From the NCBI RefSeq assembly GCF_009914755.1, contig NC_060933.1: a stretch of 64,000 nt of DNA. One strand, given 5' to 3'. The notes under the pieces are model-generated. The model had not been told where the DNA came from. It ran no database searches and saw only the letters and a list, made by a program, of their open reading frames with translations. The stretch is from the human T2T-CHM13v2.0 reference genome, Homo sapiens. Made by a program: the position numbers and the translations under genes. Below are positions 19,461-60,894 of this stretch, piece by piece; position 1 is the first letter of the stretch, and every line of letters starts with the position of its first letter.

Positions 19461-19665
19461 CTGCTACTGTAAGAAGCTTATAATGCATTTCCAACCAAGA
19501 AACTTTCCTTTAACAAGATAATGCATTATGAAATATCCTATATTATTTGAAACATTAGATCATTTCCAGCTATTGGAAAGAAAAATGTAATGAGATTTTT
19601 CACATGTAGTAAACTAAGTTATGGGTTATATTTATTATATTCTTGTCTCACTGCAGATTAAAGTT

Positions 19666-19728
19666 TACATATGTAACAAACCTGCACGTTGTGCACATGT
19701 ACCCTAGAACTTAAAGTATAATAAAAAA
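19666..19728 (+). mobile_element. Extremely 5'-truncated L1PA 3' terminus (~60 bp)
   Basis: tacatatgtaacaaacctgcacgttgtgcacatgtaccctagaacttaaagtataataaaaaa; aaagtt on both sides. Confidence 0.92.
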
Positions 19729-23924: not shown

Positions 23925-25576
23925 TGGGAGGGGCTTCAATATGGCTGAATAAAGGTGCCTGGCACTCGTCTCCTCCACAAAGAACAACCAATGCAGTACA
24001 TAACTGCACATCCATCGAATAGAACATCTAAAAGAGAAGACTGGAATTCATCTGGAGTCCACACAATGGCATTACTCCAAAGAGGGAATTAATGCTGAGT
24101 CACACTCACCCACTGAGACCCAAGAAGTTGGCACCATGGCATCAGTTTGAGAACTCAGATCCCACTAGACTGCATTTCTTCCCTCAGGCCCAACAGTCCC
24201 ATACATCCCCACATCCCTGGAGAACCATTGACATCCCTCCGCATTCACCTAGAGGGCTGCAGCAGCACAATGCTGGTTAGACCAGGCAGTGAGACAGGGT
24301 TTCCAGCATTTTAGCCAACACAGTGTCCTACACCCCAAGGAATGTGTGGTGAGGCACACTAGGGAGGCTGCCCCAGGACAAAGAGATCAGAAGTGTGCAC
24401 TCCTCAGAGCCTGAGAGATGGCTGCCACTGCCACTGACAGCAACTATCCCCTTCAGTGGCAAGAATACTTTGCAACTGCATATGCCTTCAGAGGACCTAA
24501 AGACTGGTTCTGGGGCCTGAGGAAAGACACATGATGCCCACTGCCACCATCAGCACCACCACCAGTGCCAACACACATCATTCTGGGGCCTGGGGACAGA
24601 TCAACCTGCCCACTTGATATGGTTTGGCTGTGTCCTCACCCAAATCTCATCTTGAATTGTAGCTCCCATAATTCCCATGTGGCATGGGAGGGATCCAGGT
24701 GGGAGGTAATTGAGTCATGTGGAAGAGTCTTTCCCATGCTGTTCTCATGACAGTGAGTACGTCTCACAAGATCTGATGGTTTTATAAAGGGAAGTTCCCC
24801 TACACATGCTCTTTTTGCCTGCTGCCATGTAAGACGTGACTTTGCTCCTCCTTCACCTTCCACCATGATTGTGAGACCTCTCCAGCCACGTGGAATTGTG
24901 AGTCAATTAAGCCTCTTTATTATAAATTACCCAGTCTTGGGTATGTCTTTATTAGCAGCATGAGAACAGACTAATACACTGCCATTGCCAGCACCCATGT
25001 ACACCTTAAGGATCCTGAGGAAAGACCCTTTCTGCCCACTGCCAACCCCACACACACTACCTGAGGACCCAGGGACCTACCCACCTGCCCAGCCCACCGC
25101 CACTACTAAGAAAACTGCCTGGAAGCCTGAGGACTGGCCCTCCTCGACCCACTACCACCAACACCCATGTATACTGCCTGAAGTCCCAAGAACCAGCGCC
25201 CCCCGCCAGCTGTTGCCACCACTGGTGCCTGAGGACTGCCTCACCTGGTGTCTCCATCCCCAGTAAAGGCTCACCAAAGCATCCACTTGCAGCTGTAGCC
25301 TAAGTCACTGAGAAACTCACAGACACCACTAACACTGATTATAGCCAAAGAAATCAGAGACTACACTACTGCATTCACCAGAATCAGAGCCAAAACACCT
25401 TACTCAACCAACACTATAGATACTTCTATTTAAAAAAAATAAAAGCCAATCAATAAAGTTGGAAGACGTGACAGTTAGATCAGATACACAGATATCAATG
25501 ACACAAAGAAGCATGATAAAACAAGGAAACATTACACTCCAATAGGAATACAATAATTCTCTAGTAACAGATACCA

Positions 25577-25608
<32 letters not shown>

Positions 25609-28600
25609 TAAAATACCTGAGAAAGAATTCAAAATAATGATATTAAAGAAACTCAAAAACTCAAAGAGATATAAGAGAATACAGATAAACAATACAGAGT
25701 GATCAGAAAAATACATATATATTCTGAAAGAGAAATTCAACAAAAAGATAGATATTAAAGAGAAATAAATAGAAATCCTGGAACTGAAGAGTCCAAGCTA
25801 AGAAATAAGAAATACAATCAAGAGCCACAACAATAGACTAGATCAAGCAGAAGGAAGAATTTCTGAACGTGAAGACAGGTCATTTGAAATAACCCAGTAA
25901 AACCCATAAATAAATAATAAAAAGAATGAAAGCCTATGTCACATATGGGACACCATAAAGTAATCAGATATTTGAAGTTTGGAATTTCTAGAAGAAGAGA
26001 TAGCCGAGGACATTTAAAAACTATTTAGCAAAAAATAGATGAAAACTTTCCAAGTCTTACAGGATATGTAGATATTCAGGTACAGGATATTCAAAGATAA
26101 CCAAATAGATTCAACTCAAAAAGATATTCTCCTAGGCATATTATTGTCAAACTCTCAAAAGAAGACAGAAATAGATTCTAAAAACAGAAAAAATACCAAG
26201 TTACATGTAAGGGAATTCTCATCAGATTAACAGCAAACTTCTTGCATAAATCTTACAGGCCAGAAGAGAATGGGATGATATATTCAAAGTATTAAAAACC
26301 CCAAACCCCAATGACCAAGAATACTACACCCAAAAAAGCTGTCCTTCAAAAATGAAAGACAAATAAAATCTTTTCCAGACAAGCAAACCCTGAGGGAATT
26401 CATCACCACTAGACTGACCCTACAAGAAATGCCTAAATGAGTTCTACATTTGAAAATGAAAGGAAAATATTTATCATCAACATAACAAAGAAAGTATATA
26501 ACTAATTTGTAGAGCTGATACACAAATGAGAAGAAGAAAGGAGTCAAATGTTATCACAAAAAAAGCCCAACAACTCATAGGGTAAACAATGGAAGAGACA
26601 AAAGGAAACAGAATATACAAAACGATCAGAAAACAATGAACAAAGTGATAGGAACAAGTCCTCACCTATCAATAACAACCTTAAATGCACATGTTTTAAA
26701 TTCCTCAATTAAAAGATATGGACTTGCTGAATGGATAAAAACATAAATAAATAAAACACACAAAAAACCAAGACACATCTATATGCCATCTACAAAAAAT
26801 TCATTTAAACCTGTAAAGACATACATAGACTGAAAGAAAAGGGATGGAAAAAATATTCCACACAAATGAAAACCAAAAATATGCAGAAGTAACTACACTC
26901 TTTTCAGAAAAAAATAGTCTTTTAGTCAAACATAAAAATAGACAAAGAAGATTATTATATAAAGATAATTCAGCAAGAAGATATAACAATTGTAAATATA
27001 TCTGCACCCAACACTGGAGCTCTTAAATATATAAAGCAAGTATTATGAGAATCAAAGAGAAAGGCACTTAAATACAATAATAGCTGAGAACTTCAACACC
27101 CCACTTTCAGCATGGGACACATCATCTAGACAAATATTTATCAATAAACATGGTACTTGGAATGTACGATAGACTAAATGGACCTAACAGACGTTTACAG
27201 AATATTTCATCACACAACTGCAGAATATATATTCTTCTCATCAGCACATAAAACATTCTCCAGGACAAACCATATGTTAGAACATGAAACAAGTCTCAGC
27301 AAATTTTAAAAATCAAAATTGTATCAAGTACTTTTTCAGATCTCAATAAAATAAAGCTAGAAATCAATAACCCGAGAACTTTGGAAGCTGTGCAAATACA
27401 TGGAAATTAAACAACAGACCCCTGGACAATCATTTGATCAATAAAGAAGTTAAGAAAAAACTTCAAACATTCTCGAAACAAATAAAAATTGGCACACAAT
27501 ATATCAAAACCTATGGAATATAGCAAAAACAGTGCTAAGAGAAGTTTATCACCATAAAAGCCTACATCAAAAAGTAGAAAGATTTCAAATAACCTAATGA
27601 AGGTTCTCAAATAACTAGAAAAGCAGGAACAACCCAAAATTAGGAAAGAAATAATAAAGATCAGAGCAGAACTGAACAAAATGGAAACAAACAATAGAAA
27701 AATAAAAAACCCCAAAAATTGGTTTTATGAAGAGATAAACAAATTTGATAAACCACTAGCTATACTGACCAAAAGAAAAGAAGAGAAAGAAGACCCAAAC
27801 AAATACAATTAGAAACAAATAAGGAGGCGTTACAACTGATACCACAGAAATACAAAGGGTCATTAGAGAGTGTTACGAACCACTATATGATAACAAGTTG
27901 GAAAATGTAGAGAAAATAGATAAATTCCTGGATCCAATCTATGAAGACTGAACCAGGAAGACACAGAAAAACAGCACAAATAAGTGACATGTGATGAGAC
28001 TGAATCAGCAATAAACAGTCTTCCTAAAAAGAAAAACCTAGGATTAAATGACTTTACTGTTAAATTCCACAAAAGTATAAAGAAGAGCTAAGACCAATTC
28101 TTTTTAAACTATTTCAAAAAATTGAAGAGGTGGAAATTTTTTCTAACGCATTCTACCAGATCAGCATTACCTGATGCCAAAACCAGACAAGAATACAACA
28201 ACAAAAAAAGAGAACTACATGACAATATCCCTGATGAACATGGATGCATAAATTCTCAACAAAATATTAGCCAACTGAATTAAATAGCACATCTAAAAGA
28301 TAGTACATCATAATCAAGTGGGAGTTAACCCAGGGATGCAAGGATGGTTCAACACATGCAAATCAATAAATGTGACACATTGCATTAACAGAATGAAGCC
28401 TGAAAACCATATGATTATCTAGATAGATGCAGAAAAAGCATTTGATAAAATTTAACATGCATTTATGATAAAAACTATCAGCAAGTTAGGCATAGTAGGA
28501 ATATACCTCAACATAATAAAGGCTATATATAGCAAACCCATAGCTAACATCATGCTGAATGGAGAAAAGCCGAAAACCTTACCTCTGACAACTGGAACAA

Positions 28601-29621
28601 GATAAGGATGCCACTCTCGCCACTCTACTAAACACAACATGAAAGTCCTAGTGAGAGGAATTAGGCAAGAAAAATAAATAAAAAGGCATCCAAACTGGAA
28701 AAGAGGAAGTCAAATTTTCCCTCTCTGCAGGAAGGATTATCTTATATATAGAAAAAACTAAAGACTACACCAGGAAACCCTTAGAACTGATAAACAAGTA
28801 AAGCTGCAAGATACAAAATCAAAATACAAAAATCAGTAGTTTTTCTACACACTAATCACAAACTGCTGAAAAAGAAATCAATGAAGCAATGCCTTTTACA
28901 ATAGCTACCAGAAATACCTAGGAATAAATTTAAACAATAAGATGAAAGATTTCTAAAAGAAAAACTGTAAAATTTCCATTCAATTATTTAATGAAAGAAA
29001 TTGAAGAGGACACAAATAAATGGAAAAACATGCCACACTTATAGATCAGAAGAACTAATGTTGTTAAAATAGCCATATTATATAAAGCAATCTACAGATT
29101 CAATGCAGTTCCTACCATAATGCCAATGTCATTCTTCACAGAAATGAAAAAATATTCCTACAATTTGTATAGAATTACAAAATACCCTGAATAGACCCAG
29201 CAATCCTGAGCAAAAAGAACAAAGCTGGAGGCATCACACTACCTGAATTCTAAATATACTACAAAGCTATAGTAACCAAAACAGCATGATATTGGTCTAA
29301 AATCACACACATAGAACAATAAACAGAATAGAGAACCCATAAATAAATTCATGTATTTACAGCAAACTCATTCTTTACAAAGGTGCCAAGAACATATACT
29401 GGGGAAAAGATACTTTCTTCAGTTCTTCACGTTGGAAAAACTGGATTTCTATATGCAGAGGGATAAAACTAGACTCTTATCTCTCACCTTATATAAAAAT
29501 CAACTCAAAATGAAACAAAGTTTAAGCATAAGGTCTAAAACTATAAAACGACTATAAGAGAGCATAGGGGAAATGCTTAGGAAATTGTTCAAGTCAAAGT
29601 TTTTATGGCTAAGACTTCACA
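23925..29621 (+). mobile_element. Large decayed L1 (L1M1/M2 or L1MA-type): 5'UTR, ORF1 and most of ORF2; 3' end missing
   Basis: 5' end cttcaatatggctgaataaaggtgcctggcactcg; ORF1 remnants ~25.4-26.5 kb; EN/RT remnants (gatgcagaaaaagcatttgataaaat, tctgcaggaaggattatc) with many stops. Confidence 0.92.
24615..24978 (+). mobile_element. THE1 (B/C-like) solo LTR nested in the L1 5'UTR
   Basis: tgatatggtttggctgtgtcctcacccaaatctc...gagaacagactaataca. Confidence 0.95.
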
Positions 29622-30050
29622 ACCTTTTAACAGAATCATCATCTGCACTGGTAATAAATGAAAATGTAGTGAGGGCACTGATTGCTGCCAGTGCTGATCA
29701 CTGGGGATGGAAACAAACAAAAGGAAACAGTGATGTTTACTGGCAGGATCATTTTGCTGGCTTTTAACTATAGAAACTATCAATAAGAATGAATAACTTC
29801 ATTTAGAACTCAGTAATTTTAAGAGAAAAATCTGGCAAGTCACAGTCCCTGGATGAATGATTCTTGCTTTTTTTTTTTTTTTTTTTCAGGAGATGAGTCT
29901 ACTTTATTTTTGGTACCAATTGAAAAAAAGTCAGAAATTTACAATAAAATTCAAAGGGCCCAAAATACCCAAGACAACTATGAACCAGAAAAACAGTGTG
30001 AGGAATATACAATACAATATCTCAGAAGTTAATACGAAATGTGTATTTAT

Positions 30051-30332
30051 CCTATGTCCAAATGTTCTCATTGTTCAATTCCCACCTATGAGTGAGAACA
30101 TGCGGTGTTTGGTTTTCTGTCCTTGCGATAGTTTGCTTAGAATAATGGTGAACATCACACACCAGGGCCTGTTGTGGGGTTGGCGGAGAGGGGAGGGATA
30201 GCATTAGGAGATATACCCAATGTAAATGATGAGTTAATGGATGCAGCACACCAACATGGCACATGCACACATATGTAACAAACCTGCACGTTGTGCACAT
30301 GTACCCTAGAACTTAAAGTACAACAAAAAAAA
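30051..30332 (+). mobile_element. 5'-inverted (twin-primed) L1PA 3' end with 15-bp TSD
   Basis: 30051-30149 is antisense L1, 30150-30332 is sense L1 3'UTR plus A tail; TSD gaaatgtgtatttat at 30036-30050 and 30333-30347. Confidence 0.93.
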
Positions 30333-30609
30333 GAAATGTGTATTTATTAAGATAGTGTACTATTGGTACAAGAGGAGCAAAAGCAGAAACATGCACAAAT
30401 GTTCACTTGATTGATGATCAAGGTTATGATTCAGTGTAATAAAGAAAGGACAGTCTTCAAATAAATTGTGAATGTTTAATTTTATATCTTTATGTGTATA
30501 TTGTGTGTATACACACACACACACATAAACTACAAACTGATTGCAGATCTAAATGAAAATGATAAAAAGTATGCCAAATATCTTGAGAAAAACAGAGCAA
30601 CACACATTA

Positions 30610-30790
30610 AGTCCTATGTGTTATCTGTAAGTATTTGCTGCATGGCAAATACTTAGAGGCTTAAAACGATGGGTCATTTATTATTTTATGTTTTCTTTGG
30701 GCCAGGAATGAAGGTGTGGCTTAGATGGCCAATTATGGCTTAAAATCTCCCACACAGTATTGTTAAGATGAAGCTCTCCTGGTTCTGAGT
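30610..30790 (-). mobile_element. Old MLT1-type LTR fragment
   Basis: acttagaggcttaaaac...atttattatt...gggccaggaat...ggcttagatgg. Confidence 0.5.
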
Positions 30791-30827
30791 GCTGTTTAAT
30801 TCATGAATCATACTGCACTTCAATAAA

Positions 30828-30869
30828 CAGCTATATTTCTCTTTTTTTTTTTTTTCAGCTATATTTCTC
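30828..30869 (-). repeat. T14 tract flanked by a perfect 14-bp direct repeat
   Basis: cagctatatttctc-(T)14-cagctatatttctc. Confidence 0.92.
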
Positions 30870-31659
30870 ATGAGAACTAAGGAGACATGAGAATTTTGCA
30901 ATGCTTGATTCTGAACTGGATTATTTTGCTATAAAATGCTAGGATTGTGATGTTTGGGAAAATCTGAATGGAGTCCGAGCATTAGATATTAATAATACAT
31001 CATTATTTTATGATTTTGAAGGGTCTAGGGTGCTGATGTAGAATAACCCATTTCTATGTAAGAACTACATAGATGTATGTAGTGTTCACAGAACACATTG
31101 CCGGCCTCTTAACTGTTTCAGAAAACAAAATTTATTTTTTTGGGCCATATTTGCATTATTTCTTTAAGTTTGAGATTATTACAAAATTACCCAAAATTAC
31201 ACATTAAGTAGTATACTTAAATGTATAGAAATACAAAAAATAAAACAAAATAAAAGGAATCTAGAATTTGTACAATTTATATACCTCAGTATTGGGATAA
31301 CTTTTTTGATTAATTTTAACAAAGAACAAGTAATTATGATTTTTCATTAACACAATCAACCAAATTTTATTTCTTAATGTTGATAATAATAGGATATACT
31401 CAAATGGAGCTTATTGTGTACCAAATATTATTGAGTGCGTTACCATTTTAACTTTCTTTACTCTCTCAGTGTCTATCATATCAAATTACAATAGCAAATA
31501 ATTTATTTTTTGCTTATCACCTGTATTAAAAATAAAAGCATTCTCTTCTCCTTTTGGCTCTTCTCTAAGTGAAGTAGTTCAGAATTCATAGCATTTTGTT
31601 GAGGAGTATTACTTTGATTCTTTTAGTCTATTTATCTAAGAAGTACAATTTAATTTTAG

Positions 31660-31843
31660 ATGATCCCATGGTATGAAGTTTTTTAGCAGTTGCAGCATGG
31701 ATGGATTTAAACGGATAGTTCTGCAGCCTGAACTTAAATGTTTTCAGGATAAAACAGTTTCAAAAATGACTTACCGAAAATCTTCAACTTGTGGCAATGG
31801 AATTTTGGAACCTACAGAGCAGTGTGATTGTGGCTATAAAGAG
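31660..31843 (+). pseudogene. Orphan ADAM-family exon (end of reprolysin domain and start of disintegrin domain; cyritestin/ADAM3-like) with in-frame stop
   Basis: ttttAG acceptor and GAG|GTTAGT donor. Translation *SHGMKFFSSCSMDGFKRIVLQPELKCFQDKTVSKMTYRKSSTCGNGILEPTEQCDCGYKE has the FSxCS and CGNxxxExxEqCDCG signatures; TGA at 31661-31663. Confidence 0.88.
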
Positions 31844-32399
31844 GTTAGTGGCAAAGCTTACAGGTTATCCAGAGATTTGTTCTTTCATTATGTTTTGTGT
31901 TTATTTTTTATGGCATCTATAGATATAGATATGATATGTATAAGGGGGAAATTTGAAAAAATATATTTACTATTTTGTCAAATATAAGATAGGGAGATAT
32001 GGGGCATGCAATAACTGACTCATCCTAAATTTGAAACGTTTAGAGTCTAAACCCTGGGTAAGTGTGACATCAATTTAAAAAACAGATTTTTATCATTTTA
32101 GAAACATTAGTAGCAATATCACTTTTAGTACCATACACATCAGTAGCATCAATAATATCATTATCATCTAATCATCCCTTAAATTCCACCAAAGTGACTA
32201 CATTGGTTGGCTAAGTTATTAAATGTGTGTTTTCATTTATTTTCTTACCTCCTAATTTTAGTCCTTGCATCTGTAGCAACTTCATTTATGTTAACTTGCT
32301 TCCAAAGAATTAGACTAATTATAGTCTTTGGTTCATTGTCATTTATGATAATATACATGATGCAATAATGATACATCCATGGCCCAATTATTCCTAATT

Positions 32400-33750
<1,351 letters not shown>

Positions 33751-35405
33751 CAATATTTGACATCTTTGAAATTTCCATTTGGTTCTTTTTTTAAAGATTC
33801 TTGCTTTTAAATACAATACTCTTCGCTGCTTGTCTCCTGGCGCTGTGACTCTTGGATTTATTGCAGATTGTCCAAAGCCAGGTCACACCCTCAAGAGTGA
33901 TTTTCAATTGTTTAAAATCACTAACATCAAATTGAGGGTGTGAACCTGACACCATGAGAAGACATGAAAAGAGATAACTGCAAATGGAAATGTAAGGCAG
34001 ATGGGAAAAATCACCTATTAATAGCATATGAAATCAGACAATTATTTAGTTACTGCTTTCCAGGGATTTAAAAAATCTGCTCCCAAAGACCATATATTTT
34101 CTTTCCATTGTGAACATTTTATTCTTTGTCAGCTGTGTGAAGAAAAAAGCTTTTTGATTTTCTTTTGTCTATTCTTGAGAAAAAATTGCAAAACACATAC
34201 TAGAAAATATTTTCAATAATTTTATGTATTTCTTTATAAATGCCATAAGGAAATATATGTACAAATAAATATAAACATGTTACTAAATTAAGAAAATGAT
34301 ATCAGATACCATATTCTATATCTTCCCTCATCTCATAGTCTCAACATATATCATTTGTATTATTTTATTTGAAATGCATATGTCATTTTTTTAAATTCAT
34401 TTTTCCATTACCTGAGAAAGTACCATGGTCCCAGGTAAATCCATTTGAAAAATCCGTATTTTTACTTTTATAGGTAGCTCAATTCAGTAATTCTTACTAC
34501 AAACATGTAAATTTCTTTCTTAATTCATTAACTTTTAAAAATATATATTAACAGCCCTATTGCAAAAGATGAAGATAGTATCTTTCTTACACAATCTTTC
34601 TGGCCCTACTTACTCCTACTACTATTTGTTAATTACATAGTTATTTTGAGTTTTTCTGATAATTGCATTTACACATCTAAATGTTGAGTCAGTTCTGGAA
34701 TATTTTTGGTTCTAGATAAAAGAAAACTTGATTATCATTATGGCTTATGTGGGTAAGAATTTATTTGCTATTCATAGCAAGAGATCTAGAAGTGCATGGT
34801 TGCAGGGTTGACCAATAGGCTTAATAACATCAAGGCCCCTGGACAGCAGCTTTGCAATCTCTTAGCCTTCCCTTCTATGGCTGAATAGACATCTATAAGT
34901 CTACCTTCTCCTTCCATCCCATTTTTTGGGTGTATATATCTCCGCCAGCTGCAAACATGGAGGCTAATGCATTCTGTGTTCAGCCTTTTACTTATTACTC
35001 TGACAGTAACCCCTGCTCTCACCTTTTTTTTCTGCCTTCTCAAGCACATGTTTCGTGTTGTTTTCTAAATTCTAATTTATCCATCAGCAGGACTTTATCA
35101 GCTTTCCATATTATAGAAATTCAACATTTAAGTGGCTGGTTGATGGTACATTTTCTTGCCTTTATCATTGTGAATAATTTATTCTTCTTGGGTATGTAAG
35201 AAGAAGGGAAGGAAAACTCTGTATTCAGGTCAGTTTTTTAAAAAACTAAAAAACTGAAGGTTTATAAGCATCATTGTGAAGTGTCTTTTCTAACCTAAAT
35301 ATAACACACAGATATTTTTCTTTTTACTTTGTGAATTAAAAATTTACCTTGTGAATTAAAAGTTGAATGGCAGAGATTTATTTACTTTGTTTTGTCATAT
35401 CAAGT

Positions 35406-54399: not shown

Positions 54400-56299
54400 T
54401 CTATAATGTATCTTAGCACAGATCTCCATTGTGCCTGTTAAAATCAGCACAGATTTTCATTTCAAATTCTGTATCGGAGTTTCTGAGTTTTCCTGTGGCT
54501 AAATGTTTACCTAGATATCTCTGCTGTAGTTTCCAGCTTCTGTAGAATGTCTGGTGATTGCTCCTGTCATACAGTAGATTGTTGTGGTTATTCTCATGTA
54601 ATGGTGAAGGTCTTTACACATATTGCTGCTCAACAGATATTTTGAAATTGGGTATTAGAAGATCTAGCTTTTCAGGTTTTTTTTTTTTAAGTCATTTTCT
54701 CTATCCCAGGCTTAAACTTTTCACCTTATTACTTGGTCTTCTCTTTCCTCTGAAACTCTTAACTTCTATTTGTTTTTATGCGCATCCCTGCTCTAAATTC
54801 CTGTCCCTTTCTTATGCTAAGCTTGTCATGAATCTCTTTTGTTATTTCCTCACCTAAACCTTCAGAACCTCACTTTCACTTCAGGTGGTTTGTCAAGATG
54901 AGCTCAGACTAGAATGCAGGCTCCACGTGGGGAGAGAGGATTGATCATTTCAGCCCTGTGTCTCCGGTGTCTGAAAGTAGTGGCTGACATGTAGTGGATA
55001 AAGAATAAATAAGCATTGAATGGTACATAAAAGTATTTCCTAAGAGGGATTCTCATACTAATTAGAAAAGCAATTAGAAGTATATTGTACGTATATTTCA
55101 CCCCATTATATATTTAAATTGGATTCAGAAAAATTATAATAGATAATTCCTAAACAGACAGTAATATTTTACCAAAAGCATATTTTAAATGTGTTACATA
55201 TTCCTTGACACTTAAATTACTTCCCTTAAACACAGCACTTGCTACAAATTCACATCATTTTTTTTTCATCGCTTTTGTTTCATTTTTTTCCTTGCCCTAG
55301 AGATTGCTATTGTGCTGGATGTAGGCATATTCTGAAAACTTCATTTAAAAATTAATAAATGTGTTTAATTGGAAAATGAGAACTGCTATGTTTTCATGGG
55401 TACTGGGCAGATACTTCCCTGCTAACCCTTATCCCCAGATTCTTTTTCTTTAATGTCACTCTCTGTAGAATTGCTTGATCAACGAAAGCGTGTCTCTTGA
55501 TGAAAACAGACTGTTCCTCAAAGAACAAATTAAGGACTTTCAGTCCTGGAGGTAAAACACTGTGAGTTCATCATGCAGTGCTGTTAAACAAATGTGTTAT
55601 GTGCCTGGCAACTCTGTCACACAATCAACAGGAAGCCTGAAACACAGAGATGAGCTGATTTGCACATTTTCATCAGATACTTGCAAATGCAATCAAAATA
55701 AACCAATAAGATTTAAAACTTCTTGTCATGACTCAACCTCTTGGAATTTCCCACCTTTTAACAAATCATTTATTTCACATTAAATGAATATGTTGAAGTT
55801 TTGCAAGCCATTTTAAATTCTAAGTTCTGTTTGAGGGTCTAAGTGTACTTTAAGAATGACCTCTCAAGGAGCTGCATAGTGTAATGAAGAGAATGGAGGA
55901 ATTGCAGTCTCTTCTTAATCAATTATAATGTCCTCCTCTCTTTTCTTCCCTCCTTTTTTGGTCATTTCTTTCCATCCTTCTGTCTTCAGCCTTTTCGCTC
56001 TTACCCCTATTCTCTCTTTTTTAGTCTCCAGCTCAAATTTTGTTCCTAGTGAATATAGGCAAATGGAAAAAAAGTGTTGATTTCTTGGTAAATTGTTGCT
56101 ATTCACTCAACGAACTCTTTCTTGGAGGAGCCACTATGTGCTAAGCACTCTATTAGGCATAAATGTGATTTTCAGCAAGCCACAGTCCATATCAACATGT
56201 GGCTCAGTAAACTACGTTTATTTAACTAACTCTTTCCCAAATAGAGCTTTGTTGGTAAAATGCATACCCAAAGTCCACAACTAATGTGCTTCATCAAAT

Positions 56300-57209: not shown

Positions 57210-59767
<2,558 letters not shown>

Positions 59768-60894
59768 AAATCACAGTAGACTAGGGTGGGCCTCTAATCC
59801 AATATGACTGGTGTCCTTGCGAAAGAGAGAATTTGTACACAAAGAGAGACACTCAGATAGGGAGAAAGCCCAGTGGGGATTAGTCATACTGCCACAAGCC
59901 AAGAAACTTGCAGAAGTTAGAAGACTACTGGAACTTCCCTAGCACCTTAAAGAGAACATGGCCTTTTGAACACATTACTCAGACATTTGCCTCTAGCACT
60001 GCAAAACAATACATTGCTGTTGCTTAAGCCAGTCAGTTTGTGGTACTTCATTATGTCAGCCCTAGGACACTAATACAGTATTGTTCTTTGAGTTAGTTCT
60101 TTTGTTATATTAAAAAGTCAAAATAACATAGTGAGAAGTTTGCAATAATAACTACAAATTAGGAAAGTTCCTTTTCCATACTTGTGTATCCTCTCTGAAG
60201 TACAGCTGAGAAACAGAGATGAGATAAGAATTTGAACCTACAAACTTAAGAATAAATCAAGGTGATAACACTGAATGCCTTGAGAGGATTTAGATTGATA
60301 ATTTATCTTCAGCAGAAGCAAAATGATAAAAGCATTCAAGGTTGGTCCATTAATTTTGAAAGCAAAATCCCCCATCAAAGTTTATAAATACTTCCAGAAT
60401 TCCTGAAGGTTCTAATCTCCATTTATGCTGCAGAGGTAGCTATAAGGTAAGTTAAATCTCAAGCAGCCAGATCCCTATTGATTATGTATCAGCAGAGGCT
60501 AGAAGATTTTATTTCTTCTCCCAAGTGGATTGTGAGAGCTTCATTCTGACAACATACCCGTGCACATCTAAATGAATCAAGCTTTTTAAAAAGTTGACAA
60601 TACAAAAAAAGAGATGCAATTCAACATCTAAGGGTCTGAGAACACATCTTTGAAAATGAAATACAGCAAAAACCTAGGCCACCAACATCCTCCATTATGC
60701 AAGGCAACAATGCAAGCAACTACAGGGTCTTAAGAGAAGATAATAGGAAATGAAATAGAGCAAAGTAGAGGAAAATGTAGAAATTTAATGAACAACATTA
60801 AAAAACATTGTTATGTGGGGAAATCTGACATTTCTAGATTTTAACTACAGGACCAAATTGACCTTGAAACATGTATGCATAAGATCAATGCAAT

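What the first reader, a model, noticed from the sequence alone, without database searches (positions are those of the whole stretch)
31660..31843. Orphan ADAM (cyritestin/ADAM3-like) exon 22 kb downstream of ANXA1
Seen: a 184-nt segment bounded by AG and GTTAGT encodes the end of a reprolysin metalloprotease domain (FSSCS) and the start of a disintegrin domain (CGNGILEPTEQCDCG). I found no other ADAM exon in the 64 kb. Known: this junction is typical of the sperm ADAMs clustered at 8p11 (ADAM2/3A/5/18/32), and I know of no ADAM gene beside ANXA1. Inference: my recollection of rodent cyritestin (SSCS..EFK....QPEL.C) points to ADAM3. Retained splice sites and intron-like flanks argue against a processed pseudogene and for a copied piece of genomic DNA or pre-mRNA.
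Basis: partly seen in the sequence, partly recalled or inferred. Interest (0 to 1): 0.85.

Follow-up and report, generated by a model that had tools for sequence, protein, structure and literature searches.

The report
Unspliced ADAM3A retrocopy beside ANXA1
The lone ADAM exon near ANXA1 is part of a 3.9-kb dead copy of unspliced RNA from the sperm pseudogene ADAM3A on chromosome 8, pasted into chromosome 9 by the LINE-1 copying machinery a few million years ago; it is an ordinary kind of event with an unusually clear anatomy.

Summary
Window 31660-31843 is an AG...GT-bounded 184-nt segment whose peptide aligns to the metalloprotease/disintegrin junction of ADAM-type proteins. It is the only ADAM-like piece in the 64 kb.

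It sits in a 3,924-bp insert (29872-33795). The only near-identical match shown in the genome lies inside RefSeq ADAM3A at 8p11, 40 differences in 3,871 aligned bases.

The insert has every mark of LINE-1 target-primed reverse transcription:
- a 13-bp target-site duplication, 2 matches in the window against 0.01 expected;
- a TTTT/AAA nick site;
- a poly(A) tail added 16 nt after an AATAAA inside an ADAM3A intron;
- the two halves of the source in opposite orientation, as twin priming predicts.

So it is a 5'-truncated, 5'-inverted retrocopy of an unspliced, intron-polyadenylated ADAM3A transcript, roughly 4-10 My old and dead on arrival. RefSeq does not annotate it.

The kind is known, so interest is modest.

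One extra: five clustered copy-specific A-to-G changes (RNA sense) in an antisense LINE-1 stretch look like fossil A-to-I editing. This is unproven.

The parts
29859..29871 (+). Left copy of the 13-bp target-site duplication (GATTCTTGCTTTT).
   Evidence: exactly 2 matches in the window (29859-29871 and 33796-33808), 0.01 expected, 0 of 100 shuffles with 2 or more. family D5.
29872..29886 (-). Poly(A) tail of the retrocopy, read as 15 T on the + strand. Up to 3 of these could be templated by the parent's TTT.
   Evidence: the parent (chr8) has ...CTTTCAGGAG where the window has a 19-T run followed by CAGGAG.
29887..30841 (-). Non-inverted cDNA arm 'Q': the 3' 955 nt of the source RNA. ADAM3A-sense lies on the window minus strand. 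It corresponds to chr8 39766153-39767106, all intron.
   Evidence: 14 mismatches in 954 aligned bases.
29903..29908 (-). AATAAA polyadenylation signal (TTTATT on +), 16 nt upstream of the poly(A) addition point. It is present in the parent intron too.
   Evidence: read directly from both sequences.
30053..30350 (.). LINE-1 3' piece carried over from the parent intron, itself 5'-inverted and with its own TSD (30031-30050 and 30328-30347). The ORF2p C-terminus lies on the minus strand (30078-30152). The 3'-end stretch plus A-run lies on the plus strand (30150-30330), so it is antisense in the ADAM3A RNA.
   Evidence: ORF2p residues 1252-1275 of 1275, E 2.5e-7. family D4. RefSeq soft-masked; four other dispersed copies in held sequence. 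The 'L1 3' UTR' label for 30150-30330 is my recollection plus adjacency.
30218..30324 (-). Cluster of five copy-specific T>C changes at 30218, 30266, 30268, 30321 and 30324. These are A>G on the ADAM3A-sense RNA. Candidate fossil of A-to-I editing.
   Evidence: One search lists the differences; the parent carries T at all five; of the 3-4 other L1 copies with a base there, all carry T at four sites, and at 30324 three carry T and one A; 5' neighbour is U at 5 of 5. P(5 or more in 107 bp) = 1.4e-4, with the stretch chosen post hoc.
30842..30869 (.). Inversion junction filler: 14 T, then a second exact copy of the 14-mer found at 30828-30841.
   Evidence: family D8. Not in the parent. Mechanism unresolved.
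30870..33798 (+). Inverted cDNA arm 'P': the 5' 2.9 kb of the captured RNA. ADAM3A-sense lies on the window plus strand. It corresponds to chr8 39770057 down to 39767136. The last 3 nt (GAT, 33796-33798) are shared with the TSD (microhomology).
   Evidence: 26 mismatches in 2,917 aligned bases.
31660..31843 (+). Copy of the ADAM3A exon that spans the metalloprotease/disintegrin boundary (chr8 39769088-39769271, minus strand). No nucleotide difference from the parent. In-frame TGA at 31661-31663.
   Evidence: 60 of 60 residues identical. AG and GT sit at the same places in ADAM5, ADAM18, ADAM32, ADAM2 and ADAM9; nearest differences are at 31629 and 31903.
33087..33483 (-). Alu-type repeat carried over from the parent intron (label recalled), antisense in the ADAM3A RNA.
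   Evidence: masked; sequence; 33 other copies in held sequence.
33796..33808 (+). Right copy of the target-site duplication. It is followed by AAATAC, so the pre-insertion target read ...TTTT/AAA..., the L1 endonuclease preference.
   Evidence: The preference is described in PMC2912911 (passages).

Best explanation
A LINE-1-mediated retrocopy of an unspliced ADAM3A transcript. Shown: the source is a contiguous 3.9-kb stretch of ADAM3A on chr8 (intron, one exon, intron). Inferred chain of events: in a germline or early-embryo cell, an ADAM3A-sense transcript was cleaved and polyadenylated at a cryptic AATAAA about 2.9 kb into the intron that follows the metalloprotease/disintegrin exon. L1 ORF2p nicked chr9 at TTTT/AAA, about 22 kb downstream of ANXA1, and primed reverse transcription on the poly(A) tail. 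That made arm Q. The second nick, 13 bp away, left a 3' end that annealed inside the same RNA through a 3-nt GAU match. It primed a second cDNA running towards the RNA's 5' end, which made arm P and carries the exon. The two cDNAs were joined untidily. The result is a 5'-truncated, 5'-inverted insert flanked by a 13-bp duplication. It brought no promoter, one exon out of about twenty, and a stop codon already in that exon. It is therefore an inert fossil with no expected function. At 1.03% divergence from the parent it dates to roughly 4-10 My ago.
For: (1) Only one near-identical source is shown in the genome, and it lies inside RefSeq ADAM3A.
(2) Two adjoining pieces of the source appear in opposite orientation. 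The piece next to the poly(A) tail is the 3' part in ADAM3A sense, and the shared breakpoint lies at the outer end of the inverted arm. This is the geometry of twin priming (coordinates; model in passages of PMC12016303, and PMC2912911).
(3) A run of 15 T directly abuts the end of homology, and AATAAA lies 16 nt upstream in ADAM3A sense, in both copies.
(4) The 13-bp direct repeat sits exactly at both ends: 2 matches against 0.01 expected (D5). This is within the 10-17 bp TSD range quoted in PMC2912911.
(5) The target reads TTTT/AAA.
(6) A 3-nt microhomology lies at the 5' junction. About 70% of 5'-inverted L1 insertions have 2-5 bp (PMC2912911).
(7) A small loss of 29 or 12 nt lies between the arms.
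(8) Divergence of 40 in 3,871 with no change in the exon fits neutral decay of both copies.
(9) 5' inversions are reported in 3 of 23 processed-pseudogene insertions (PMC12016303), and partially processed retrogenes are a recognised class (PMC5470649).
(10) RefSeq labels ADAM3A a transcribed pseudogene. Testicular ADAMs are described as expressed predominantly in testis (PMC4550289, start of abstract in the and 53 listings), so a germline RNA source is plausible.
Against: No empty orthologous site could be examined, because no primate or other human assembly was available. The insertion is therefore inferred from its ends only. The inversion junction is not the clean microhomology join of the textbook model: it carries 28 nt of filler (D8). 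Current use of the intronic poly(A) site in ADAM3A RNA was not tested. Matches in closed regions of the reference are not shown, so another, closer source copy cannot be excluded. The substitution rates used for dating are recalled values, not tool results.
Confidence: 0.9

Rival explanations
1. Orphan L1 3' transduction. An L1 sitting in sense orientation upstream in ADAM3A read through its own poly(A) signal to the intronic AATAAA. Severe 5' truncation plus twin priming then left only the flanking ADAM3A sequence.
For: The ends would be identical: poly(A), TSD, nick site and inversion. Cis-preference of L1 proteins would explain why a non-L1 RNA was copied.
Against: A probe from the L1 3' end found no L1 3' end on either strand in the 36 kb upstream (in ADAM3A sense) of the copied stretch. 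The only hit was 18 nt, E 0.6. In the whole 80 kb there are only two such ends, both downstream. The upstream ADAM3A exon lies just 320 nt beyond the copy's 5' end, so the RNA looks like ordinary ADAM3A pre-mRNA. The test covers this one haplotype only.
Confidence: 0.05
2. DNA-mediated segmental duplication with an inversion (replication-template switching or break repair), with no RNA involved.
For: Intron sequence is retained. At 3.9 kb and about 99% identity it meets the usual working definition of a segmental duplication. The junction has templated-looking filler.
Against: A poly(A) tract absent from the parent sits exactly 16 nt after an AATAAA in gene sense. There is a perfect 13-bp TSD and a TTTT/AAA target. 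The inversion geometry is the specific one twin priming predicts. A DNA mechanism predicts none of these together.
Confidence: 0.03
3. Remnant of a resident ADAM gene that once lay beside ANXA1.
For: The exon has intact splice-site dinucleotides.
Against: No other ADAM-like exon occurs in the 64 kb. The flanking 'introns' are about 99% identical to ADAM3A introns, repeats included, which is impossible for an old paralogue. The next-best paralogues are only 32-45% identical at the protein level.
Confidence: 0.005
4. Assembly chimera in T2T-CHM13.
For: None specific. I could check no reads or other assemblies.
Against: The copy differs from chr8 at 40 sites and by several indels. It has its own poly(A), TSD and junction filler. 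A mis-join of chr8 sequence would be identical and would lack these.
Confidence: 0.01

Closest known systems
Processed pseudogenes / gene retrocopies made by LINE-1 in trans
   Same: Poly(A) tail, 13-bp TSD, TTTT/AA-type nick site, 5' truncation, and origin from a Pol II transcript of a germline-expressed gene (hallmarks as listed in passages of PMC12016303, and PMC7692494).
   Different: It is not processed. It keeps 790 nt of the upstream intron and 2.9 kb of the downstream intron, holds a single exon, and ends at an intronic rather than the gene's terminal poly(A) site. Searches that rely on exon-exon junctions would miss it (PMC5470649, says intron-containing retrocopies may be overlooked).
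Partially processed (semi-processed) retrogenes
   Same: A retrocopy that retains intron sequence (class named in PMC5470649).
   Different: Those cases usually keep one intron within an otherwise spliced mRNA. Here nothing is spliced, and the RNA ended inside an intron.
5'-inverted L1 insertions (twin priming; Ostertag and Kazazian 2001, seen only as a reference)
   Same: Inverted 5' arm, direct 3' arm with poly(A), small loss between the arms, microhomology at the 5' junction, and a normal-length TSD (PMC2912911).
   Different: The template is a cellular pre-mRNA, not L1. The inversion junction carries 28 nt of filler, including a duplicated 14-mer.
Orphan L1 3' transductions
   Same: Unique non-L1 sequence with poly(A) and TSD at a new locus.
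   Different: No source L1 lies upstream of the copied stretch in this haplotype.
ADAM3A (cyritestin, CYRN1) at 8p11
   Same: It is the parent locus. The exon peptide is identical at 60 of 60 residues, and the exon borders are conserved with ADAM5, 18, 32, 2 and 9.
   Different: The chr9 piece is one exon of a gene that is itself a pseudogene in humans (RefSeq type; title of Grzmil et al. 2001 seen in a reference list; paper not held).

Membership tests
L1-mediated (TPRT) retrocopy | Poly(A) tail at the 3' end that is absent from the source DNA | tested here: met
   15 T on the + strand at 29872-29886; the parent has at most TTT there.
L1-mediated (TPRT) retrocopy | Target-site duplication flanking the insert | tested here: met
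   The 13-mer occurs at 29859-29871 and 33796-33808, the only 2 matches in the window, 0.01 expected (D5).
L1-mediated (TPRT) retrocopy | L1 endonuclease-type nick site (TTTT/AA) | tested here: met
   The target reads ...GCTTTT/AAATAC. The preference is quoted from PMC2912911.
L1-mediated (TPRT) retrocopy | Empty (pre-insertion) allele at the orthologous site in an outgroup | not testable with these tools
Processed pseudogene (strict sense) | Introns removed (exon-exon junctions) | tested here: not met
   The single exon is flanked by about 99%-identical ADAM3A intron on both sides. It should not be filed as a processed pseudogene.
Twin-priming 5' inversion | Two arms that are contiguous in the source but lie in opposite orientation, with the direct arm next to the poly(A) and the inverted arm derived from the stretch just 5' of it | tested here: met
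   Window 29884-30857 corresponds to chr8 39766150-39767123 (+). Window 30869-33808 corresponds to chr8 39770058-39767125 (-).
Twin-priming 5' inversion | Microhomology between the target overhang and the internal priming site | tested here: met
   GAT is shared by the TSD and the parent at 33796-33798.
Twin-priming 5' inversion | Microhomology-type join at the inversion junction | tested here: inconclusive
   28 nt of filler (T14 plus a duplicated 14-mer) instead of a simple join.
ADAM (reprolysin + disintegrin) gene | Sequence homology to the metalloprotease-end / disintegrin-start junction | tested here: met
   PDB phmmer aligns residues 2-54, best E 1.4e-5. All 18 own-genome protein matches are in ADAM loci or are the window copy. 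Pfam was below its cut-offs.
ADAM (reprolysin + disintegrin) gene | A full set of exons and an open frame | tested here: not met
   One exon only in the 64 kb, with an in-frame TGA at 31661-31663. It is a fragment, not a gene.
Orphan L1 3' transduction | Source L1 in sense orientation directly upstream of the transduced stretch | tested here: not met
   No L1 3' end in the 36 kb upstream, this haplotype only.
ADAR A-to-I editing footprint | Cluster of A>G on the RNA-sense strand, derived in the copy | tested here: met
   5 of 5 clustered changes. The parent and other L1 copies keep the unedited base. A shared private marker at 30241 argues against conversion of the parent.
ADAR A-to-I editing footprint | G depleted one base upstream of the edited A | tested here: met
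   The 5' neighbour is U at 5 of 5 cluster sites, and at 7 of 8 candidate sites in arm Q, where the background is 0.29. The motif is from PMC4365171.
ADAR A-to-I editing footprint | Long dsRNA partner in the same transcript | tested here: not met
   No inverted match to the cluster in 80 kb of ADAM3A; the best was 43 nt at 74%, E 1.4. The MFE fold shows no long duplex. Pairing in trans with L1 mRNA is not testable here.

The most novel reading that the evidence does not exclude
The chr9 copy is a molecular fossil of one germline ADAM3A pre-mRNA molecule and records more than its sequence. It shows that the transcript ended at an intronic poly(A) site. Through five clustered A-to-G changes, confined to the stretch that is antisense to the LINE-1 3' end, it also suggests that this stretch was in a duplex when ADAR saw it. 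No partner exists in cis, so the partner would have been an L1 mRNA. The same RNA-RNA pairing could have been what delivered a non-L1, unspliced RNA to the L1 ORF2 protein. That would be 'hitch-hiking' by antisense pairing as a route around L1 cis-preference.
Probability: 0.1. Interest if true: 0.6.

Novelty: new member of a known kind. Interest (0 to 1): 0.3.

Why it matters
It matters mainly as housekeeping. RefSeq annotates nothing at this spot, so a 3.9-kb copy at about 99% identity to ADAM3A sits unlabelled on chr9.

ADAM3A and ADAM5 are studied as copy-number variants (PMC9778539, search listing and start of abstract). Probes, primers or short reads placed on this exon or its flanking intron could cross-map to chr9. 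I did not check any assay design.

As biology, it is a clean worked example showing that unspliced, intron-polyadenylated transcripts are substrates for L1 in the germline, and that twin priming acts on them. Retrocopy screens built on exon-exon junctions miss this class (PMC5470649).

The possible A-to-I footprint, if confirmed with outgroups, would be a small but concrete case of RNA editing written into the genome. That idea already has a literature: I saw only the title of Knisbacher and Levanon 2015 in a reference list, and the paper is not held.

Tried and rejected
Pfam on the 55-aa peptide gave only sub-threshold hits. The PDB sequence search was more informative.

I considered a costly word search for ADAM3 orthologues. 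I left it out because the length window of that tool excludes full-length ADAMs for a 60-aa query, and the RefSeq gene span already names the parent.

Rfam on 29500-34200 gave 0 matches at gathering score, so no RNA gene explains the piece.

I translated the masked repeat on the plus strand and found nothing in Pfam or PDB. That was the wrong strand. The minus strand gave the L1 ORF2p C-terminus.

A search for a cis dsRNA partner of the A>G cluster found nothing convincing.

Counted over the whole insert, transitions are not skewed. In source-to-copy direction on the RNA sense strand, my tally from the list gives A>G 10, C>T 11, G>A 6, T>C 4. The editing claim therefore rests on the L1 cluster alone.

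The two arms differ in divergence (1.47% against 0.89%), but not significantly (Fisher p 0.14).

In the Alu the asymmetry runs against the copy: 4 parent-derived changes against 1 copy-derived. The two copy-derived G>A changes at 30054 and 30062 have no explanation.

I could not work out the junction filler.

Literature. In one search, 533 papers hold 2 or more of the 4 terms and 15 were listed, those with more terms first. The four papers with three terms never combine ADAM3A with ANXA1, so no held paper links ADAM3A, ANXA1 and a retro- term. A paper holding only the two gene names could sit among the unlisted ones. Supplementary tables of retrocopy and structural-variant catalogues (for example PMC4558860 and PMC12350158, both seen only in listings) are closed and may list this locus. 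Presence in GRCh38, in segmental-duplication tracks, in other humans or in apes could not be checked.

Full report
OBSERVATION

The sequence is as described. AG sits at 31658-31659, a 184-nt segment at 31660-31843, and GTTAGT at 31844-31849. The frame from 31673 gives MKFFSSCS...CGNGILEPTEQCDCGYKE. Pfam alone is weak: Reprolysin E 0.17 at the last 25 of 200 profile positions, below cut-off. A sequence search of PDB chains aligns residues 2-54 to the metalloprotease-to-disintegrin junction of P-III snake-venom metalloproteinases (best E 1.4e-5), and more weakly to ADAM10 and ADAM22; 19 chains matched at E<=1.

Searched as protein against the whole reference, the 60 codons 31664-31843 give 18 matches. 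Two are 100% identical: this window and chr8:39769088-39769267. The other 16 lie in ADAM5, ADAM18, ADAM1A, ADAM32, ADAM2, ADAM9, ADAM29, ADAM15, ADAM19, ADAM21P1, ADAMDEC1, ADAM21, two chr15 pseudogenes, ADAM8 and ADAM10.

In ADAM5, ADAM18, ADAM32, ADAM2 and ADAM9 the aligned block is bounded by AG and GT at the same places. These are therefore the borders of a real, conserved ADAM exon.

tblastn with four long ADAM open frames finds only 31682-31834 in the 64 kb. The other 8 hits have E 0.86-6.6.

WHERE IT COMES FROM

A 701-nt query around the exon has one other match in the reference, at 99% identity: chr8:39768831-39769531, minus strand. That lies inside RefSeq ADAM3A (chr8:39728311-39800254, minus strand, 'transcribed pseudogene').

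A 20-kb query and local BLAST define two pieces:
- Window 30869-33808 corresponds to chr8 39770058 down to 39767125. ADAM3A sense is on the window plus strand.
- Window 29884-30857 corresponds to chr8 39766150 up to 39767123. ADAM3A antisense is on the window plus strand.

Nothing else in the window matches the 80 kb around ADAM3A at 90% or better, apart from a 66-nt repeat fragment at 19663-19728. RefSeq annotates nothing at the insert. Matches in closed regions of the reference are not shown, so further copies cannot be excluded.

ANATOMY OF THE ENDS

Left end. The flank ends ...GATTCTTGCTTTT. Then come 15 more T, and then homology to chr8 starts at CAGGAG. In ADAM3A sense this is ...AATAAA, 16 nt, then poly(A). 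The AATAAA is also in the parent.

Right end. Homology to chr8 stops at ...AAAGAT, and the window continues TCTTGCTTTT/AAATAC.

Target-site duplication. The 13-mer GATTCTTGCTTTT occurs exactly twice in the window, at 29859-29871 and 33796-33808. The expected count is 0.01, and 0 of 100 shuffles gave two (D5). The pre-insertion target therefore read ...TTTT/AAA..., the L1 endonuclease preference (PMC2912911, passages). The first three bases of the right-hand repeat (GAT) are also in the parent, giving a 3-nt microhomology.

Geometry. On the strand where the poly(A) is at the right, the order is: TSD, inverted 5' arm, direct 3' arm, poly(A), TSD. The breakpoint the two arms share in the source lies at the outer end of the inverted arm. 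That is the twin-priming arrangement (PMC12016303; PMC2912911; Ostertag and Kazazian 2001 seen only as a cited reference).

Gap and junction. Between the arms, 29 nt of the parent are missing, or 12 nt if the T-run is read as a slipped copy. The junction (30842-30869) holds 14 T and a second exact copy of the 14-mer at 30828-30841 (D8). I cannot explain this filler.

WHAT THE RNA WAS

The captured RNA ran from 790 nt upstream of the exon, through the exon, to a cryptic poly(A) site about 2.9 kb into the next intron. The neighbouring upstream ADAM3A exon, found by homology at chr8 39770385-39770483, lies only about 320 nt beyond the copy's 5' end. The next detectable downstream exon is about 17 kb away. 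So the template was unspliced, intron-polyadenylated ADAM3A pre-mRNA, copied with 5' truncation.

A probe for L1 3' ends finds none in the 36 kb upstream. This argues against read-through from an upstream L1 (orphan 3' transduction), at least in this haplotype.

AGE

After trimming the ambiguous ends, 40 of 3,871 aligned bases differ (1.03%; Jukes-Cantor 0.0104), plus a few small indels. By arm, this is 14 of 954 and 26 of 2,917 (Fisher p 0.14). None is in the exon.

With recalled substitution rates of 0.5-1.2e-9 per site per year, this gives about 4-10 My. Leaving out the seven copy-lineage changes in the L1 piece gives 33 of 3,871, or 0.85%, about 3.5-8.5 My (my arithmetic). That brackets the human-chimpanzee split, so whether apes share the insert is open.

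SIDE FINDING: A POSSIBLE RNA-EDITING FOSSIL

The parent intron carries a small L1 3' piece that came along (window 30053-30350, soft-masked). Its own TSD is at 30031-30050 and 30328-30347 (D4). The minus strand of 30078-30152 encodes the last 24 residues of L1 ORF2p (E 2.5e-7). The stretch 30150-30330 is the L1 3' end with its A-run on the plus strand; that label is recalled and supported by four dispersed copies. In the ADAM3A RNA the second stretch is therefore antisense to L1.

Within it the copy differs from the parent by five T>C changes at 30218, 30266, 30268, 30321 and 30324. On the RNA strand these are A>G.

Evidence for editing:
- The parent carries T at all five sites. Of the three or four independent L1 copies that have a base there, all carry T at four sites; at 30324 three carry T and one A. 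The copy is therefore the derived one.
- A private marker shared by parent and copy at 30241 lies inside the tract, which argues against later gene conversion of the parent.
- All five have U as the 5' neighbour in the RNA. In arm Q as a whole, 7 of 8 candidate sites do, against a background of 0.29, P about 0.001. This fits the ADAR preference for a non-G 5' neighbour (PMC4365171, passages).
- Given the rate elsewhere, five or more copy-lineage changes in 107 bp has P about 1.4e-4, with the window chosen post hoc.

Evidence against, or limits:
- There is no inverted partner for this stretch in 80 kb of ADAM3A, and no long duplex in an MFE fold.
- Two further copy-derived changes nearby are of another type (G>A at 30054 and 30062).
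- In the Alu at 33087-33483 the parent, not the copy, carries 4 of the 5 polarised changes.
- Over the whole insert, transition types are not skewed (my tally).

A duplex in trans with L1 mRNA would fit the confinement to the antisense stretch. Intermolecular editing is discussed in a 2026 preprint seen only in a listing. This remains conjecture. I put editing at about even odds.

COMPARISON WITH WHAT IS KNOWN

The mechanism is textbook LINE-1 target-primed reverse transcription acting in trans on a cellular RNA, with twin priming. 5' inversions occur in about 18-31% of L1 insertions and in 3 of 23 processed-pseudogene insertions.

The insert fails the defining feature of a processed pseudogene, intron loss. 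It belongs with the less-catalogued 'partially processed' or unspliced retrocopies. Retrocopies have been used before to infer how the parent was transcribed (PMC7692494).

No held paper combines ADAM3A, ANXA1 and a retro- term. Supplements were closed.

VERDICT

The feature is real and is an unannotated member of a known kind. It has no expected function. Its practical relevance is cross-mapping with ADAM3A. Its scientific interest is as a clean example, plus an unproven editing footprint. Interest is 0.3.

Noticed in passing
window 31661-31663 (and chr8 ADAM3A): In-frame TGA as the second codon of the exon, in the phase shared with ADAM5, 18, 32, 2 and 9. It is present in both copies, so it predates the retrocopy. 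It fits ADAM3A being a pseudogene.
   Followed up: partly
window 30218-30324: Five clustered copy-specific T>C changes (A>G on the ADAM3A RNA) in the stretch that is antisense to the L1 3' end. All have a 5' U. Candidate A-to-I editing fossil with no cis partner found.
   Followed up: yes
window 30054 and 30062: Two further copy-derived changes (G>A on +, C>U-type on the RNA) in the adjacent L1-sense stretch. Three of three other L1 copies and the parent have G. Unexplained.
   Followed up: partly
window 30842-30869: The inversion junction holds 14 T plus an exact second copy of the neighbouring 14-mer (30828-30841). Neither is in the parent. Mechanism unresolved.
   Followed up: partly
window 30031-30350: The L1 piece inherited from the ADAM3A intron is itself a 5'-inverted insertion with its own TSD (30031-30050 and 30328-30347). 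This is a twin-primed insert nested inside a twin-primed insert.
   Followed up: partly
window 33087-33483: In the inherited Alu-type repeat, 4 of 5 differences are derived on the chr8 parent and 1 on the copy. This is the opposite asymmetry to the L1 piece.
   Followed up: partly
L003 / chr8 about 39770040-39770075: The parent has a 17-nt tandem duplication exactly where the copy's 5' end falls. The copy starts within the first unit.
   Followed up: no
window about 25217-29623: A large old dispersed repeat directly left of the insertion site, with many genome-wide matches at 69-76% identity. It is probably an ancient LINE (label recalled) and is unrelated in age to the retrocopy.
   Followed up: no
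window 19663-19728: A 66-nt fragment 98.5% identical to the parent's L1 3'-end stretch. It is another L1 3' end and was used as one of the comparison copies.
   Followed up: partly
window 54442-55113, 59350-59489, 59560-59829: RefSeq functional-element rows (an OCT4-NANOG hESC enhancer and two 'active regions') downstream of the insert.
   Followed up: no
G000 chr15:17951262-17951417 and chr15:19614249-19614404: Two ADAM-like matches (40% identity to the exon peptide, 375-aa open frames) in the pseudogenes LOC646071 and LOC283804.
   Followed up: no
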